Below are positions 14,886 through 28,490 of a DNA stretch of 28,490 nt, in pieces. Source of the stretch: a virus (taxonomy: Duplodnaviria; Heunggongvirae; Uroviricota; Caudoviricetes); IMG/VR virus record IMGVR_UViG_2585427739_000003; one strand, given 5' to 3'. The notes under the pieces were generated by a model that saw nothing but the letters and a program-made list of their open reading frames with translations, ran no database searches and had not been told where the DNA came from. Position 1 is the first letter of the stretch. Every line of letters begins with the position of its first letter. Both the position numbers and the translations under genes were made by a program.

Positions 14886-15179
14886 ATGAAAAAAATGTTG
14901 TTTTCTGCCGCTCTGGCAATGCTTATTACAGGATGTGCTCAACAGACGTTTACTGTTGGAAACAAACCGACAGCAGTAACACCAAAGGAAACCATCACCC
15001 ATCATTTCTTCGTTTCGGGAATTGGACAGGAGAAAACTGTTGATGCAGCCAAAATTTGTGGCGGCGCAGAAAATGTTGTTAAAACAGAAACCCAGCAAAC
15101 ATTCGTAAATGGATTTCTCGGTTTTATTACTTTAGGCATTTATACTCCACTGGAAGCGCGTGTGTATTGCTCACAATAA
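14886..15179 (+). CDS. bor: Bor outer-membrane lipoprotein
   Basis: MKKMLFSAALAMLITGCAQQTFTV...LEARVYCSQ closely resembles lambda Bor, with lipobox LITGC. On the strand opposite the late genes, next to Rz, as in lambda. Confidence 0.9.
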   Translation: MKKMLFSAALAMLITGCAQQTFTVGNKPTAVTPKETITHHFFVSGIGQEKTVDAAKICGGAENVVKTETQQTFVNGFLGFITLGIYTPLEARVYCSQ

Positions 15180-17591: not shown

Positions 17592-17927
17592 ATGAAGTGG
17601 ATTGTGATTGATACAGTTATCCAGCCATCATGCGGAATATCTTTTTCAGTCATATGGAGTAAAATAAAATTAATAATCTGGTATCAATCGGATGCTTTCT
17701 TACCTCCTGAAAGTATATTTACACTGACTCACACAGGCATCATGCTCAATAACAAAGTGCTACCTGTAACCATTTACAACGTAGTACCATTCAATAAAAC
17801 ATTCTGGAATTTAATCAAAAACAGCCAGGAATGCCCTACAAATACAGATAACGTAATGAATGAATGCTTTAATAACCGTTGCACTCTGCAAATATGTCCT
17901 TATGGACTAAAACAACAAAGTCCATAA
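17592..17927 (+). CDS. Hypothetical protein in an AT-rich cargo island, Cys-rich C-terminus
   Basis: 111-aa ORF with AAGGAAAG ribosome-binding site before the ATG, AT-rich upstream region with promoter-like hexamers, and a perfect hairpin downstream. It is transcribed against the late operon. Confidence 0.5.
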
Positions 17928-18374
17928 GGAGTTTACTCACATCTGACAAAATCAATATAAACAGCCCCTCCGGAGAGGGGCTGGAGAGTGGCGCTATGTG
18001 CCATTGCATGGTGCCGGGTGCCTCCCGGTGAATTCAGTACCAGCACCTGAATTCGCGATTATCCCATATACCTACTCGCTGATTGCCCCTCCGCACAGGG
18101 GGATTCACCATGCCAGTTTCTTTTAACAAACTCCCCGCAAACCAGACAACAGTCAACCGCCTGAATTGTGAAGTATTTAAAAATTTCTCCCGCTAACTGA
18201 TACCCGGCTAACAGTCTGGCGTTTTCTTTTTCAGCAACGGGAAAGCAACAACCACCACCCCCGCCACCAGCACACCGTCAGCCAGCACTGACATTATCCG
18301 GCTGCTGCAATGCCACTCACAAAAACAGTAAGCAATCACTTTTTACCGTAACAAGTGATAATCCAGATATGTAT

Positions 18375-18841: not shown

Positions 18842-18915
18842 CGCGCTGTACTGGATTCGAACCAGTGACCGATTGCTTAGAAGGCAATTGCTCTGTCCGG
18901 CTGAGCTAACAACGC
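18842..18915 (-). tRNA. tRNA-Arg (anticodon UCU), 3' CCA not encoded
   Basis: Hand-folded cloverleaf: 7-bp acceptor stem GCGTTGT/ACAGCGC, GTTCGAATCC T-arm, anticodon loop CTTCTAA. Resembles the argN/argO tRNAs of lambdoid Stx phages. Confidence 0.75.
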
Positions 18916-19015
18916 TGAATACCGATAATGGACCGCCATCGGGGACCCGCCCCCGCACCAACAACCCTGTTATCGTGTCGTCTGCTCTTCCTGATAAGCT
19001 AATGGCGGTTTGTGA

Positions 19016-19091
19016 TGGTGGCCCTTGCTGGATTTGAACCAGCGACCTGGCGATTATGAGTCGCTCGCTCTCACCACTGAGCTAAAGGGCC
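19016..19091 (-). tRNA. tRNA-Ile2-like (anticodon CAU), with encoded CCA
   Basis: GGCCCTTTAGCTCAGTGGTGAGAGCGAGCGACTCATAATCGCC...GGTTCAAATCC...GGGCCACCA resembles E. coli tRNA-Ile2 (ileX) and the ileZ tRNA of Stx phages. Confidence 0.8.
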
Positions 19092-26925: not shown

Positions 26926-26970
26926 TTTTACAACATCGCATTGACTTGAAGGGTAACTCTTGTTACCTTA
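26926..26970 (+). promoter_or_regulatory. Left operator / early-left promoter region
   Basis: Third copy of the operator palindrome, GTAACTCTTGTTAC (about 26953-26966), overlapping a TTGACT -35-like hexamer, upstream of the plus-strand early genes. Confidence 0.5.
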
Positions 26971-27150
26971 ACAGCATACCAACCCACCCCGCCCCACAGA
27001 ATGCAGGGCAATACTTCGAGTTACCAGGCAGTGGTCAGGGGTTAAGTAGCCAGCCCGAGGCGTAAGAACATGACGGCAGGGTTCAACTTTAATAACTATG
27101 CAGCAGGTTTTTGTTCCGCTACCCCGGCGTTAAGGGGAAATGAGGTCAGC

Positions 27151-27306
27151 ATGGATACTATCGATCTTGGCAACAGCGAATCTCTGGTATGTGGCGTGTT
27201 CCCCAACCAGGACGGTACGTTCACCGCGATGACGTATACCAAAAGCAAAACGTTTAAAACCGAAAATGGTGCCCGTCGCTGGCTGGAAAGAAACTCAGGT
27301 GAGTGA
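27151..27306 (+). CDS. ydfA: YdfA-like small protein, 51 aa
   Basis: Internal ATG with GAGG ribosome-binding site gives MDTIDLGNSESLVCGVFPNQDGTFTAMTYTKSKTFKTENGARRWLERNSGE, first gene of a dicB-type operon. Confidence 0.6.
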   Translation: MDTIDLGNSESLVCGVFPNQDGTFTAMTYTKSKTFKTENGARRWLERNSGE

Positions 27307-27307
27307 T

Positions 27308-27436
27308 ATGGATTTCGACACAATCATGGAAAAGGCTTACGAAGAATACTTCGAAGGTCTTGCCGACGGCGAAGAAGCTCTCAGCTTCAACGAATTTAAA
27401 CAGGCGCTTTCCAGTTCGGCAAAATCTAACGGCTGA
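27308..27436 (+). CDS. ydfB: YdfB-like small acidic protein, 42 aa
   Basis: Hand-translated MDFDTIMEKAYEEYFEGLADGEEALSFNEFKQALSSSAKSNG. Not in the ORF track. Confidence 0.5.
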   Translation: MDFDTIMEKAYEEYFEGLADGEEALSFNEFKQALSSSAKSNG

Positions 27437-27465
27437 TAAGCGAAACAGCACCGCGAGGAATCAGT

Positions 27466-27684
27466 ATGCAGAAACGAGAACCCGTCATCATCGCGCCAGG
27501 CTATACCGATGATGAACTTTATGAGTGGATGCGCCAGAAAATTAATGCAGCGCAGGATCTGAAATGGGCTAATGAAGCCAGGGCTAAGCAGGCTGAAAAT
27601 CTGTCCGCTCTGGAGCAGGATATCACCAATCTGGAAAAAGCAGCGGCATTAAGCATTGCCAGAATGATTACATACCCGCGTTAA
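27466..27684 (+). CDS. ydfC: YdfC-like protein, 72 aa
   Basis: ORF with GAGGA ribosome-binding site; size and position match ydfC of the Qin dicB operon. Confidence 0.6.
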   Translation: MQKREPVIIAPGYTDDELYEWMRQKINAAQDLKWANEARAKQAENLSALEQDITNLEKAAALSIARMITYPR

Positions 27685-28024
27685 TAGATAACCAACGAAG
27701 CTAAGGTTGGTAATTAAGGAGTTCTCCACGGGTGAGGTGGAGTGCGTGCGCCGGACACGGGTGAGCATCCGGCACTGACAGTTTACTGAAAGGATATTTC
27801 CCTGAAAAGTCAGACCATAACGCGAAAGCGCACGGCGAGGTAGCTGGTTCATAGATAGCCTGTCGTTAAATTTTCGTCGACCGTGCGCTTCCGGTTGTGG
27901 CAACCCGCGAAATGGCGCGGCGGTAAGTATGGCGGGGGTATTCCTTCCCCGTTGAGGACACCGGGTTGTCAGGTTGACCATACGCTTAAGTGACAACCCC
28001 GCTGCAACGCCCTCTGTTATCAAT

Positions 28025-28082
28025 TTTCTGGTGACGTTTGGCGGTATCAGTTTTACTCCGTGACTGCTCTGCCGCCGTTTTT
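28025..28082 (+). ncRNA. dicF: DicF-like small RNA (division-inhibiting antisense sRNA)
   Basis: TTTCTGGTGACGTTTGGCGGTATCAGTTTTACTCCGTGACTGCTCTGCCGCCGTTTTT matches the DicF sequence as I recall it, ends in a hairpin plus T-run, and lies just upstream of dicB after a 340-bp non-coding leader. Confidence 0.7.
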
Positions 28083-28251
28083 AAAGTGAATTTTGTGATG
28101 CGGTGAATGCGGCTAAGCGCACGCGGAACAGTTAAAACCAAAAACAGTGTTATGGGTGGATTCTCTGTATCCGGCGTTAATTGTTAACTGGTTAACGTCA
28201 CCTGGAGGCACCAGGCACTGCATCACAAAATTCATTGTTGAGGACGCGATA

Positions 28252-28440
28252 ATGAAAACGTTATTACCAAACGTTAATACGTCTGAAGGTTGTTTTGAAA
28301 TTGGTGTCACTATCAGTAACCCTGTATTTACTGAAGATGCCATTAACAAGAGAAAACAAGAACGGGAGCTATTAAATAAAATATGCATTGTTTCAATGCT
28401 GGCTCGTTTACGTCTGATGCCAAAAGGATGTGCACAATGA
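28252..28440 (+). CDS. dicB: DicB cell-division inhibitor, 62 aa
   Basis: MKTLLPNVNTSEGCFEIGVTISNPVFTEDAINKRKQERELLNKICIVSMLARLRLMPKGCAQ, recognised as DicB; internal start within ORF track entry 28147..28440. Confidence 0.85.
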   Translation: MKTLLPNVNTSEGCFEIGVTISNPVFTEDAINKRKQERELLNKICIVSMLARLRLMPKGCAQ

Positions 28441-28490
28441 ATTCAGCATTTGCGCTTGTTCTGACAGTTTTTCTTGTTTCCGGAGAGCCA
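28437..28490 (+). CDS. ydfD: YdfD-like protein, N-terminal fragment cut by the window end
   Basis: ATG overlaps the dicB stop (ATGA); translation begins MNSAFALVLTVFLVSGEP... Confidence 0.55.
   Translation, partial: MNSAFALVLTVFLVSGEP

What the first reader, a model, noticed from the sequence alone, without database searches (positions are those of the whole stretch)
27151..28490. Early-left operon is a dicB-type division-inhibition cassette
Three small ORFs matching ydfA, ydfB and ydfC in size and order are followed by a long untranslated leader, a DicF-like sRNA, dicB and the start of ydfD. This is the Qin-prophage operon, but here it is driven from the left operator of a full CI/Cro switch rather than from the short DicA repressor. 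DicF and DicB both inhibit host cell division, so derepression would block division.
Basis: partly seen in the sequence, partly recalled or inferred. Interest (0 to 1): 0.4.

Follow-up and report, generated by a model that had tools for sequence, protein, structure and literature searches.

The report
Prophage dicF–dicB division-inhibition operon
This is the well-known ydfABC–dicF–dicB cell-division-inhibitor operon of Qin-type E. coli prophages, placed as usual behind the phage's leftward early promoter, so the finding is correct but ordinary.

Summary
ydfA (27151-27306), ydfB (27308-27436), ydfC (27466-27684), a 340-nt spacer, DicF (28025-28077), dicB (28252-28440) and the start of ydfD (28437-) align without gaps to E. 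coli K-12 Qin at 97.9% identity. DicF matches K-12 at 52/53 bases and scores 72.5 bits in Rfam. DicB is 62/62 identical.

Homology to Qin stops at 27113. Upstream lies a different immunity module: a Cro/DicC-like gene, an HTH+S24 repressor, and a 14-bp palindrome (GTAAC-N4-GTTAC) found only three times in the window. Two copies lie between cro and cI, and one overlaps the -10 of a TTGACT-17-TACCTT promoter facing ydfA.

The arrangement is common and already annotated: 671 of 5426 complete E. coli genomes carry it. That dicB sits in the PL position of a lambdoid immunity locus has been published since 1988.

Two by-products are less ordinary:
- The "full" repressor has Ala in place of the S24 catalytic Ser, fixed in its whole cluster, so it is probably SOS-blind.
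- The PL transcript starts with a conserved, covarying structured leader plus a short uORF (26976-27080). This element is absent from Rfam, and in Arsenophonus prophages it precedes nutL and an N-like gene.

The parts
25475..25900 (-). YdaT-family / CII-like gene, first gene after cro in the rightward early operon
   Evidence: Pfam YdaT_toxin 7.4e-10. PHROG 163 'CII-like transcriptional activator' 1.9e-45.
25897..26112 (-). cro / DicC-like repressor (71 aa)
   Evidence: Pfam P22_Cro 2.9e-16. NCBIfam DicC subfamily 3.2e-15, below its cut-off. 39% identical to K-12 DicC.
26142..26155 (.). Operator copy 1 (GTAACAATAGTTAC), cro-proximal. It overlaps the inferred -10 of the rightward promoter (TTGACA-18-TACCCT on the - strand).
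   Evidence: Exact palindrome match. Conserved at the same place in sister loci L008 and L012. The promoter was read by eye and is an inference.
26190..26203 (.). Operator copy 2 (GTAACATTGGTTAC), abutting the ATG at 26204
   Evidence: Its translation 'NIGYM' recurs in the apparent N-terminal extensions of distant homologues. This suggests that the operator is what is conserved, and that the true start is 26204 rather than 26162.
26162..26878 (+). cI-type repressor with HTH_3 and Peptidase_S24 domains. RefSeq annotates the start at 26162 (238 aa); the likelier start is 26204 (224 aa). The codon at the catalytic-Ser position is GCG = Ala, at 26612-26614.
   Evidence: Pfam. Alignment to lambda CI chain 3bdn_A: VEGDAMT against VEGNSMT, with QAG and KK retained. 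Family alignment. Cluster survey. Lambda numbering and codons.
26882..26909 (+). Intrinsic terminator after cI (AGAACCCGCA-UUCAU-UGCGGGUUUU, then UC)
   Evidence: Folds at -18 kcal/mol, z = -5.1, 0 of 200 shuffles as stable. An equivalent hairpin is present in L008.
26941..26969 (+). PL-type promoter: -35 TTGACT (26941-26946), 17-nt spacer, -10 TACCTT (26964-26969)
   Evidence: Read from the sequence. The -35, operator and -10 are conserved in L008 while the 6 nt between the -35 and the operator differ. The geometry matches TTGACC-17-TAATCT in the K-12 dicA-ydfA intergenic sequence. The consensus scanner did not call it, because its -10 matches only 3 of 6. Inferred, not mapped.
26953..26966 (.). 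Left operator (GTAACTCTTGTTAC), spanning the spacer and the first 3 nt of the -10
   Evidence: Third and last exact copy of the palindrome in 28.5 kb. Expected 0.43; 0 of 100 shuffles reach 3.
26976..27080 (+). Conserved structured 5' leader of the PL transcript. Nested hairpin: P1 26986-26990/27038-27042, P2 26994-26997/27031-27034, P3 27002-27008/27024-27030, apical 27010-27012/27020-27022. It is followed by the invariant segment UAAGUAGCCAGCCCGAGGCGUAAGAACAUGA, which carries an SD and the uORF start.
   Evidence: Covariance model R1: 82.8 bits, E 7e-20, a single copy in the window. Independent folds. Pair counts. Shared with Rac and many heteroimmune prophages. No Rfam match at E <= 5.
27070..27150 (+). 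Leader uORF (start ATG 27070). In this window it is fused in frame to ydfA by a 1-nt insertion, giving a 78-aa ORF at 27070-27306.
   Evidence: ORF list. In Rac and other copies the uORF stops after 6-45 codons. All 42 distinct copies keep at least one of two in-frame ATGs.
27151..27306 (+). ydfA (DUF1391, 51 aa)
   Evidence: Pfam DUF1391 8.8e-28. 49/51 aa identical to K-12 YdfA.
27308..27436 (+). ydfB (42 aa)
   Evidence: 40/42 aa identical to K-12 YdfB. PHROG 2061 3.8e-27.
27466..27684 (+). ydfC (72 aa)
   Evidence: 71/72 aa identical to K-12 YdfC. PHROG 1744 1.4e-39.
27685..28024 (+). Untranslated ydfC-dicF spacer. It corresponds to the precursor region that RNase III and RNase E process in K-12.
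   Evidence: 97.4% identical to K-12. Folds better than shuffles (z = -2.84, 0 of 100). Processing is known for K-12 only (PMC10448788).
28025..28077 (+). DicF sRNA (53 nt). Hairpin 28039-28077, followed by the U-run 28078-28082.
   Evidence: Rfam RF00039 72.5 bits. 52/53 identical to K-12 dicF. Fold.
28083..28251 (+). dicF-dicB spacer / dicB 5' UTR, including the hairpin CCUGG-AGGCA-CCAGG at 28201-28215
   Evidence: 98.3% identical to K-12 Qin. 80% identical to the Rac kilS-kilR spacer. Sub-threshold STnc100 resemblance, 34.5 bits.
28252..28440 (+). dicB (62 aa)
   Evidence: 62/62 aa identical to K-12 DicB. Pfam DicB 1.9e-40. NCBIfam 2.8e-39, above its cut-off.
28437..28490 (+). 5' end of ydfD, overlapping the dicB stop (ATGA) and cut by the end of the window
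   Evidence: 17/18 aa identical to K-12 YdfD. Annotated as ydfD in the near-identical NT1F25 prophage.

Best explanation
The region is the early-left (PL) operon of a lambdoid, Rac/Qin-type E. coli prophage. Its cargo is the known dicBF cassette.

Lysogenic state (inferred from sequence). The cI-type repressor binds the 14-bp palindrome GTAAC-N4-GTTAC at two sites between cro and cI and at one site overlapping the -10 of PL. This silences both early operons. cI transcripts stop at a strong intrinsic terminator before PL.

After loss of repression (inferred by homology to K-12). Transcription starts near 26976. It passes a conserved structured leader and short uORF, then ydfA-ydfB-ydfC, then a 340-nt structured spacer. 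RNase III and RNase E are expected to release DicF there, as in K-12. Part of the transcription passes the DicF terminator into dicB and ydfD. In the near-identical NT1F25 prophage it would continue into a recE-like exonuclease gene, xis and int.

Effects (established for K-12, not tested here). DicF represses ftsZ translation. DicB recruits MinC to the septum, so cells filament. DicB also blocks ManYZ-dependent phage DNA entry.

Trigger. The repressor carries Ala at the S24 nucleophile position. The most likely trigger is therefore not RecA-stimulated self-cleavage but something DicA-like: an antirepressor acting in trans, stochastic flipping of the Cro switch, or stress. No such factor was identified in the window.
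For: - Identity and order of all parts.
- Module boundary at 27113.
- Shared operator at OR and PL: 3 exact copies, 0 of 100 shuffles.
- The -35, operator and -10 are conserved in the 87%-identical sister locus L008, whose downstream cargo differs.
- Same geometry as the Qin dicA-ydfA intergenic sequence. The experimentally defined Qin operator Oc, TTGTTAGTCATAACTAACAA, has the same 5-4-5 layout (PMC3441716).
- cI terminator: z = -5.1.
- No promoter-like site on the + strand inside the operon. No internal promoter was found in K-12 (PMC10448788).
- Functions of DicF, DicB and YdfD, and the RNase III/E processing: PMC10448788 and PMC6832061.
- Downstream recE-like gene, xis and int in the >99.8%-identical prophage.
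- Ser to Ala.
Against: - Nothing here is experimental for this prophage. The promoter, transcription start and operator occupancy are inferred from sequence. The scanner did not call PL, because its -10 matches only 3 of 6.
- Only one strong operator is seen at PL and two at OR, where lambda has three at each.
- No antirepressor, Rem homologue or LexA box was found in the window, so the inducing route is unknown.
- The window lacks part of the prophage: the tail-fibre end, and everything beyond ydfD.
- How transcription passes the DicF terminator without an N protein is not explained.
Confidence: 0.82

Rival explanations
1. Classical SOS-inducible lambdoid switch. DNA damage activates RecA, the CI-type repressor cleaves itself at Ala-Gly, and PL fires, so the division block is part of a normal SOS-triggered lytic programme.
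For: The repressor has the complete HTH + S24 architecture. It keeps the Ala-Gly site (EQAGYW) and the general-base Lys (TLKKV). The sister cluster P0003 has the same operators and keeps GDSM, so it could work this way. The window's prophage lacks the IS insertions seen in NT1F25.
Against: The nucleophile Ser (lambda Ser149, LexA Ser119) is Ala. The codon is GCG, and Ala is fixed in all 15 listed members of a 499-member cluster; the exact protein is on at least 1000 contigs. That Ser-to-Ala at this position abolishes LexA and CI autocleavage is established knowledge recalled from memory, not retrieved here. No sequenced phage in the 50,697-record collection carries this repressor; the best match is 44% identical.
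Confidence: 0.1
2. The cassette's selected role is superinfection exclusion rather than division control. Low-level DicB would block ManYZ-dependent phage DNA injection, and filamentation would be a side effect of over-expression.
For: In K-12, DicB gives about 100-fold resistance to lambda and other ManYZ-dependent phages (PMC6832061). The cassette is present in 4764 of 5426 complete E. coli genomes, often in several copies. DicB is 100% conserved here.
Against: This does not exclude the main explanation, and nothing in the sequence separates the two roles. DicF, which is equally conserved, has no known exclusion role.
Confidence: 0.35
3. dicF and dicB are expressed from their own promoter inside the operon, independently of the immunity switch.
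For: One older study proposed a promoter upstream of dicB, as cited in PMC10448788. The 340-nt spacer and the 170-nt dicB leader give room for one.
Against: Primer extension and Northern blots in K-12 found no internal promoter (PMC10448788). The scan finds no sigma-70-like site on the + strand between 25800 and 28490. The region is 97-98% identical to K-12.
Confidence: 0.07
4. The locus is decaying cryptic-prophage DNA with no maintained function.
For: The closest annotated copy (NT1F25) has IS3 and IS66 insertions and a stop codon in a tail gene. The repressor's catalytic Ser is lost. No isolated phage carries this immunity type.
Against: All six ORFs and DicF are intact. The module is 97.9% identical to a K-12 copy that sits in a different prophage. 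The window lacks the IS insertions. Operators, promoter and terminator are conserved in relatives. Functional phages carry the same cassette: Tritos and mEp460_ev081.
Confidence: 0.06

Closest known systems
dicBF operon of cryptic prophage Qin, E. coli K-12 (dicC-dicA-ydfABC-dicF-dicB-ydfDE)
   Same: Same genes, order and spacing from 38 nt upstream of ydfA onward, at 97.9% ungapped identity. DicB is identical and DicF matches at 52/53. The position is the same, directly downstream of a CI-like repressor gene that is divergent from a Cro-like gene. The promoter/operator geometry is the same.
   Different: - Different immunity specificity: operator GTAAC-N4-GTTAC against TTAGY-N4-RCTAA.
- The repressor is 224/238 aa with an S24 C-terminal domain, against the 135-aa DicA. 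Their HTH domains are 54% identical.
- The roughly 135-nt Rac-type structured leader lies between PL and ydfA here and is absent from Qin.
- No Rem antirepressor homologue in the window.
- The prophage here has full head, tail, lysis and replication modules.
Early-left operon of cryptic prophage Rac, E. coli K-12 (racR-ydaG-ydaF-kilS-kilR-ydaE-racC-recE)
   Same: - The PL-proximal leader is 87% identical (window 26972-27138 against the racR-ydaG intergenic region).
- ydaF is a ydfA homologue (88% at DNA level).
- The sRNA-terminator-to-inhibitor spacer is 80% identical (window 28072-28236 against kilS-kilR).
- Both place an sRNA and a small division inhibitor behind PL.
   Different: The inhibitor is KilR, not DicB. 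KilS shares only the terminator hairpin with DicF and has a different 5' seed region. RacR is an unrelated repressor.
Phage lambda PL operon (OL1-3, nutL, N ... kil)
   Same: A leftward early operon repressed by CI at operators that overlap PL, carrying a host division inhibitor. The divergent cro/cI layout and a terminator after cI are also shared.
   Different: There is no N gene and no canonical nut site here. There is one strong operator at PL instead of three. Kil is unrelated to DicB and DicF. Lambda lacks the structured leader (no R1 match in L004). Lambda CI has the catalytic Ser149.
Functional temperate phages carrying dicBF (Escherichia phage Tritos OV696610; mEp460_ev081)
   Same: Tritos has the same leader, ydfABC, an annotated DicF, dicB, ydfD, exonuclease VIII, xis and int, at about 98% identity to the window outside the immunity genes. 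mEp460_ev081 is cited in PMC10448788 as a functional phage with dicB, dicF, dicAC and rem.
   Different: Their repressors are short and DicA-like (139 aa in Tritos), not HTH+S24. No isolated phage in the collection has this window's repressor.
Non-cleavable prophage repressors relieved by antirepressors (DicA/Rem; Gifsy GfoR/GfhR)
   Same: The expected behaviour is the same: a repressor that RecA cannot inactivate directly (for DicA and Gifsy; for the Ala substitution here).
   Different: Those repressors lack the S24 domain or the Ala-Gly bond. This one keeps the whole domain, the Ala-Gly bond and the Lys, and has lost only the nucleophile. No cognate antirepressor was found.

Membership tests
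DicF RNA (Rfam RF00039) | Sequence and structure match to the family model above the gathering score, over the full length | tested here: met
   72.5 bits against a gathering score of 48, model positions 1-52 of 52, E 2e-14.
DicF RNA (Rfam RF00039) | 3' Rho-independent terminator hairpin followed by a U-run | tested here: met
   Hairpin 28039-28077 at -16.6 kcal/mol, then UUUUU at 28078-82. Identical to K-12 except the last base.
DicF RNA (Rfam RF00039) | Position between ydfC and dicB in a prophage PL-type operon | tested here: met
DicF RNA (Rfam RF00039) | [quoted passage not shown] | not testable with these tools
   Shown for K-12 (PMC10448788). The precursor region is 97.4% identical here.
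DicB (Pfam PF05358 / NCBIfam NF049927) | Full-length match above the curated cut-off | tested here: met
   Pfam 136.8 bits (cut-off 27). NCBIfam 132.8 bits (cut-off 100). Positions 1-62 of 62. 62/62 identical to K-12 DicB.
DicB (Pfam PF05358 / NCBIfam NF049927) | MinC-dependent division inhibition | not testable with these tools
   Inferred from sequence identity with the characterised K-12 protein.
Lambdoid immunity region (CI/Cro bistable switch) | Divergent repressor and Cro genes separated by a short operator-bearing intergenic region | tested here: met
   cro 25897-26112 (-) and cI from 26162 or 26204 (+). Two exact palindromes lie in the 49-91 bp between them.
Lambdoid immunity region (CI/Cro bistable switch) | The same operator sequence at the leftward promoter (OL), overlapping its -10/-35 | tested here: met
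   The third and only other copy, at 26953-26966, lies inside TTGACT-17-TACCTT. Conserved in L008.
Lambdoid immunity region (CI/Cro bistable switch) | Three graded operators at each of OR and OL | tested here: not met
   Only 2 + 1 sites match with up to 1 mismatch. The same holds for Qin, where only Oc bound DicA in vivo (PMC3441716).
LexA / lambda CI-type self-cleaving S24 repressors | N-terminal HTH plus C-terminal Peptidase_S24 domain | tested here: met
   HTH_3 2.2e-16 and Peptidase_S24 1.1e-16. Aligns to the lambda repressor 3bdn_A over residues 11-217.
LexA / lambda CI-type self-cleaving S24 repressors | Ala-Gly (or Cys-Gly) scissile bond in the linker | tested here: met
   EQAGYW aligns with lambda VQAGMF (Ala111-Gly112).
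LexA / lambda CI-type self-cleaving S24 repressors | Catalytic Ser nucleophile (lambda Ser149, LexA Ser119) in the G-(D/N/E)-S-M motif | tested here: not met
   GDAMTN, codon GCG at 26612-26614. All 15 listed members of its cluster have Ala. The sister cluster has Ser with codon TCA. It should therefore not be filed as a self-cleaving repressor.
LexA / lambda CI-type self-cleaving S24 repressors | Catalytic Lys general base (lambda Lys192) | tested here: met
   TLKKV aligns with lambda TFKKL.
N/nut antitermination system | boxA + boxB nut site and an N gene with an Arg-rich motif downstream of PL | tested here: not met
   There is no N-like ORF between PL and ydfD. The site that holds CGCTCTTTAAC plus a hairpin in Arsenophonus copies reads GTTCCGCTACCCCGGCGTTAAGGGG here.
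HK022 put-type antiterminator RNA | Two-stem-loop RNA just downstream of PL/PR acting in cis on RNA polymerase, with similarity to putL/putR | tested here: inconclusive
   A BLAST search of the leader did not hit HK022. The fetched HK022 stretch (L018) gave no R1 match, but it probably does not include putL. The leader has a single copy per immunity region and one nested hairpin, not two.

The most novel reading that the evidence does not exclude
In this widespread prophage lineage, the dicBF division-inhibition cassette is controlled by two undescribed layers.

1. A full-length CI-type repressor that has become a natural pseudo-protease. The S24 nucleophile Ser is Ala, fixed in E. coli, Shigella and E. 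albertii and also found in a Salmonella lineage, while the scissile bond and the Lys are kept. This uncouples PL from direct RecA sensing without truncating the protein, which is how DicA reached the same end.

2. A conserved, covarying structured leader RNA plus a 6-45-codon uORF at the very 5' end of the PL transcript. It is shared by heteroimmune lambdoid prophages across Enterobacterales, is absent from Rfam, and in N-encoding relatives sits immediately upstream of nutL. It would act as a post-initiation checkpoint on early-left expression, for example through translation-coupled control of Rho termination or of access to nut.
Probability: 0.35. Interest if true: 0.5.

Novelty: already known. 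Interest (0 to 1): 0.17.

Why it matters
As stated, the finding matters little. It re-identifies a cassette characterised since the 1980s (dicB, dicF, and the immunity-like control by DicA/DicC). That cassette is annotated automatically in thousands of E. coli genomes, and its physiology has recent detailed literature covering the FtsZ/MinC division block, ManYZ-dependent phage exclusion, metabolic targets of DicF, and virulence regulation in EHEC.

Its practical value is as a clean annotation of this window's immunity and early-left region.

The by-products could matter more:
- A naturally Ser-to-Ala "dead" S24 repressor, present in about 12% of complete E. coli genomes, would be a simple and testable example of how prophages or their hosts disconnect toxic early genes from the SOS response.
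- The structured PL leader plus uORF is a candidate new cis-regulatory RNA family of lambdoid prophages. It is present in 3706 of 5426 complete E. coli genomes, including K-12 Rac, where it could be tested directly.

Tried and rejected
- **Rem antirepressor.** tblastn of K-12 Rem against the window gave nothing better than E 0.45. The ORF next to hok, where rem sits in Qin, is unrelated (PHROG of unknown function).
- **SOS-controlled antirepressor.** LexA-box pattern CTGT-N8-ACAG gave 16 hits with up to 1 mismatch against 9.4 ± 3.5 expected. The only perfect hit lies inside the portal gene. Not supported.
- **Consensus promoter scan.** It found no + strand promoter. PL was identified by eye and by conservation instead. 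The corresponding hexamer in the K-12 dicA-ydfA intergenic sequence (TAATCT) also matches only 3 of 6.
- **put-type RNA as identity of the leader.** No sequence similarity to HK022. The HK022 stretch I fetched was poorly annotated and probably missed putL. Left inconclusive.
- **RNAalifold on the plain MAFFT alignment of leaders.** It predicted only an invariant hairpin and no covariation, because the stems are in different registers in different genera. Single-sequence folds and a CM-guided alignment were used instead. The CM alignment leans towards the modelled structure.
- **STnc100.** The sub-threshold hit in the dicB leader (34.5 bits against a gathering score of 47) reduces to one shared hairpin. 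Not treated as a family member.
- **Literature searches** for the leader core sequence and for nutL-leader uORFs found nothing relevant. A search for KilS, kilR and Rac together found nothing.
- **Search for an isolated phage with this repressor:** none above 44% identity.
Full report
**1. What is there**

The last 1.4 kb of the window holds, on the + strand:
- ydfA (27151-27306, 51 aa)
- ydfB (27308-27436, 42 aa)
- ydfC (27466-27684, 72 aa)
- a 340-nt stretch with no convincing ORF (27685-28024)
- DicF (28025-28077)
- a 174-nt spacer
- dicB (28252-28440, 62 aa)
- the first 18 codons of ydfD (from 28437), which overlaps the dicB stop

Rfam's DicF model matches 28026-28077 over its full length at 72.5 bits (gathering score 48, E 2e-14). 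I fetched the K-12 Qin region and compared it directly. Window 27113-28490 aligns to it without one gap at 97.9% identity. DicF matches at 52/53 bases, with only the final base changed. DicB is 62/62 identical, YdfC 71/72, YdfA 49/51 and YdfB 40/42. Pfam and NCBIfam place DicB and DUF1391 well above their cut-offs. The DicF terminator hairpin and U-run are intact.

**2. What drives it**

Homology to Qin stops at 27113, 38 nt before ydfA. Upstream is a different immunity module.
- A 71-aa P22_Cro/DicC-like gene lies on the - strand (25897-26112). It is followed by a YdaT/CII-like gene and replication genes.
- Divergent from it is an HTH_3 + Peptidase_S24 repressor ending at 26878. Its HTH domain is 54% identical to DicA, and the Cro is 39% identical to DicC.
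- The palindrome GTAAC-N4-GTTAC occurs exactly three times in the 28.5-kb window. Two copies lie between cro and cI (26142-26155 and 26190-26203). One lies at 26953-26966, between cI and ydfA. The expectation is 0.43, and 0 of 100 shuffles reach three.
- The third copy sits inside TTGACT-17-TACCTT (26941-26969), running from 6 nt after the -35 into the first three bases of the -10.
- The K-12 dicA-ydfA intergenic sequence has the same layout: TTGACC, 6 nt, TTAGTCATGGCTAA, with a -10 of TAATCT. The experimentally defined Qin operator Oc has the same 5-4-5 symmetry (PMC3441716).
- A strong intrinsic terminator follows cI (z = -5.1).
- In an 87%-identical sister repressor locus (L008), the three palindromes, the -35 and the -10 are kept while neighbouring bases differ. 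The downstream cargo there is Rac-like rather than dicBF. This shows that the promoter and operator belong to the immunity module, and that the module recombines with different left operons.

The promoter, transcription start and operator occupancy are inferences. The consensus scanner did not call PL, because its -10 matches only 3 of 6.

**3. How common, and is it known?**

The window is more than 99.8% identical to a prophage next to potC in E. coli NT1F25, minus that strain's IS3 and IS66 insertions. In that prophage the operon continues into a recE-like exonuclease gene, xis and int.
- 671 of 5426 complete E. coli genomes hold at least 80% of window 25400-28490. PGAP annotates them as 'LexA family protein ... 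ydfB, ydfC, dicB, ydfD'.
- The dicBF part alone is found in 4764 genomes, with a median of two places per genome.
- Sequenced phages such as Tritos carry the same leader-ydfABC-DicF-dicB-ydfD-exonuclease-xis-int block behind a short DicA-like repressor.

The literature already states the following (PMC10448788; PMC6832061):
- dicA/dicC resembles a lambdoid immunity locus.
- dicBp is the PL analogue.
- DicA and DicC behave as a CI/Cro-like bistable switch.
- DicF is cut from the polycistronic transcript by RNase III (190-nt species) and RNase E (53-nt species).
- No internal promoter exists.
- DicF and DicB cause filamentation on derepression.
- dicBF operons occur in many strains and in functional phages.

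**4. A caveat on the 'full CI'**

Aligned to the lambda repressor (PDB 3bdn_A), the window's protein reads HVEGDAMTNSNG where lambda has EVEGNSMTAPTG. The Ala-Gly site (EQAG against VQAG) and the Lys (TLKK against TFKK) are kept. From the lambda record I confirmed that these positions are Ser149, Ala111-Gly112 and Lys192.

In a 20-sequence family alignment the distribution is as follows:
- Ala: the window, its two closest clusters, and a 68%-identical Salmonella cluster.
- Ser: an 87%-identical E. coli cluster and 12 of the 13 more distant relatives (Hamiltonella, Arsenophonus, Erwinia and others). The remaining one, an Arsenophonus nasoniae protein, has lost the whole motif.

All 15 listed members of each cluster agree with their representative. 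The window's exact protein is on at least 1000 contigs. The codons are GCG (window), TCA (sister cluster) and GCA (Salmonella). A neighbour-joining tree interleaves the Ala and Ser lineages, so the state is old or recurrent and is not a sequencing error.

Ser-to-Ala at this position is known to abolish LexA and CI self-cleavage. This is established knowledge that I recalled and did not retrieve here. I therefore do not file the protein as a self-cleaving repressor, and I expect PL not to respond directly to RecA.

No Rem homologue, other recognisable antirepressor or convincing LexA box is present in the window. No isolated phage carries this repressor (best 44% identity). The inducing route is unknown. 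By analogy with DicA it could be an antirepressor acting in trans, stochastic Cro switching, or stress.

**5. A conserved leader at the start of the PL transcript**

Searching the immunity module alone showed that window ~26972-27112 matches 3706 of 5426 genomes, many more than the 702 that carry this cI. It is the same sequence as the racR-ydaG intergenic leader of K-12 Rac (87% identity). It lies directly after the repressor gene in heteroimmune phages. K-12 Qin lacks it.

A scan of one genome per species with its invariant core found it in Arsenophonus (many copies), Phlomobacter, Serratia, Pantoea, Superficieibacter, Escherichia and Shigella.

Evidence for structure:
- Folded one at a time, 9 of 11 genus-level representatives adopt the same nested hairpin, with different stem sequences. 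P1 is ACCCC/GGGGU, GCAAC/GUUGC or GCCC/GGGC. P2 is CCAC/GUGG, GGCAAA/UUUGCC, GGUAAA/UUUACC or GGCAGAA/UUUUGCC. P3 is GCC.GG/CC.GGC, CAGA/UCUG or CACGAAG/CUUCGUG. All close an invariant apical AAU[ACNNCGA]GUU.
- On a covariance-model alignment of 46 copies, 85.2% of cells pair, against 78.5 ± 0.6 in shuffles (0 of 500) and 17-41% when partners are slid. 12 of 18 pairs show changes on both sides, against 6.0 ± 1.6 in shuffles (1 of 500). The alignment was fitted to the model, so these counts lean towards the structure. The single-sequence folds do not share that bias.

The hairpin is followed by an invariant single strand, YUAAGUAGCCAGCCYGAGGCRUAYGAACAUGA, with a Shine-Dalgarno sequence and two in-frame ATGs. 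Of 42 distinct copies, 28 keep both ATGs, 10 keep only the second, 4 keep only the first and none lacks both. The uORF is 6-45 codons long and poorly conserved beyond M(N)M-K/T-A.

In Arsenophonus the order is repressor, PL, leader, uORF, boxA (CGCTCTTTAACA), a hairpin, and then an N-like gene with an Arg-rich N-terminus. The E. coli copies have no N and only a degenerate boxA-like sequence. In this window a 1-nt insertion fuses the uORF to ydfA (78-aa ORF at 27070-27306).

Rfam has no match, even at E <= 5, and I found no paper on the element. Its function is open. Candidates are a 5' stabiliser, a translation-coupled Rho attenuator, or a modulator of access to nut. It is a candidate new cis-regulatory RNA and deserves its own follow-up. 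It lies just outside the finding's coordinates.

**6. Other relations**

The segment from the DicF terminator to dicB (28072-28236) is 80% identical to the kilS-kilR spacer of Rac. KilS shares DicF's terminator hairpin but has a different 5' part. 'sRNA, terminator, conserved leader, small division inhibitor' is therefore a shared design of Rac-type and Qin-type left operons. A sub-threshold STnc100 resemblance in this spacer reduces to one hairpin, CCUGG-AGGCA-CCAGG, with a compensatory difference from the strong STnc100 copy at 17953-18142.

**7. Verdict**

- Observation: confirmed.
- Interpretation: supported.
- Novelty: already known.
- Interest of the finding as stated: low.

The mechanism is a repressor-controlled PL operon whose derepression yields DicF and DicB and blocks division. 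It rests on near-identity to an experimentally characterised operon and on sequence-level evidence for the switch. Nothing was tested experimentally for this prophage. The Ser-to-Ala repressor and the structured PL leader are the items worth passing on.

Noticed in passing
window 26612-26614 (within cI 26162/26204-26878): The S24 catalytic Ser is replaced by Ala (GDAMTN, codon GCG), while the Ala-Gly site and the Lys are kept. Ala is fixed in all listed members of its 499-member cluster and in a Salmonella cluster. A sister E. coli cluster with the same operators keeps Ser. The repressor is probably not self-cleavable.
   Followed up: yes
window 26976-27080 (+); also L007 3017-3121 (-), L008 4280-4384, L045 4367-4474 and 7051-7158, among others: A conserved structured leader RNA (nested hairpin with covarying stems) followed by an invariant SD/ATG segment, at the 5' end of the PL transcript. 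It is present in 3706 of 5426 complete E. coli genomes, including K-12 Rac, and across Enterobacterales. It has no Rfam family. In Arsenophonus it precedes boxA/boxB and an N-like gene.
   Followed up: partly
window 27070-27306: The leader uORF (ATG 27070) is fused in frame to ydfA by a 1-nt insertion (ACCCCGG against ACCCGG in Rac and L008), giving a 78-aa ORF. Phage Tritos annotates the long form and PGAP the 51-aa form. Across 42 copies at least one of two in-frame ATGs is always kept.
   Followed up: partly
window 26162-26206: The annotated N-terminal extension of the repressor (MSTIATSLGSNIGYM) overlaps the rightward promoter and operator 2. The motif 'NIGYM', conserved even in distant homologues, is the translation of the operator GTAACATTGGTTAC followed by ATG. 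The real start is probably ATG 26204, possibly on a leaderless PRM-type transcript as in lambda.
   Followed up: partly
window 28072-28236; L007 1750-1916 (-): The DicF-terminator-to-dicB spacer is 80% identical to the kilS-kilR spacer of Rac. KilS shares DicF's terminator hairpin (GGCGG.AUCAGUUUU...CCGCC-UUUUU) but has a different 5' seed, so it looks like a DicF paralogue in the equivalent position.
   Followed up: partly
window 28075-28284 (+) and 17953-18142 (-): A sub-threshold STnc100 (RF02076) hit, 34.5 bits, overlaps the dicB 5' UTR. It shares the hairpin TCACC(N)GGAGGCACC(N)GGCAC (28201-28215 here) with the strong STnc100 copy in the late region, with a compensatory U-A/G-C difference.
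   Followed up: partly
window 27649-28023 (-): A 124-aa ORF with a TTG start lies antisense to the whole ydfC-dicF spacer. It is not annotated in K-12 or NT1F25 and is probably spurious.
   Followed up: no
window 21934-22258 (-), 18842-19091 (-), 14886-15179 (+), 17592-17927 (+): Other cargo of the prophage: a hok/sok type I toxin-antitoxin (sok 106.7 bits), two tRNA genes downstream of the Q-like antiterminator (19235-20056), and, by correspondence with NT1F25, iss (serum survival lipoprotein) and iraM (anti-adapter) morons.
   Followed up: no
L019, L029, L045, L048, L055 (Arsenophonus / Phlomobacter): Several loci hold two leader copies 1.9-2.7 kb apart on the same strand. In the one locus examined (L045), each copy follows its own repressor gene and precedes an ORF in the N position, which looks like tandem immunity regions. 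Arsenophonus genomes carry many such copies.
   Followed up: partly
L012-L015 (Salmonella): The Ala-type Salmonella relative of the repressor keeps the first operator (GTAACAATAGTTAC). Its left operon is different (a 204-aa ORF), with no dicBF and no R1 leader match in L012.
   Followed up: no
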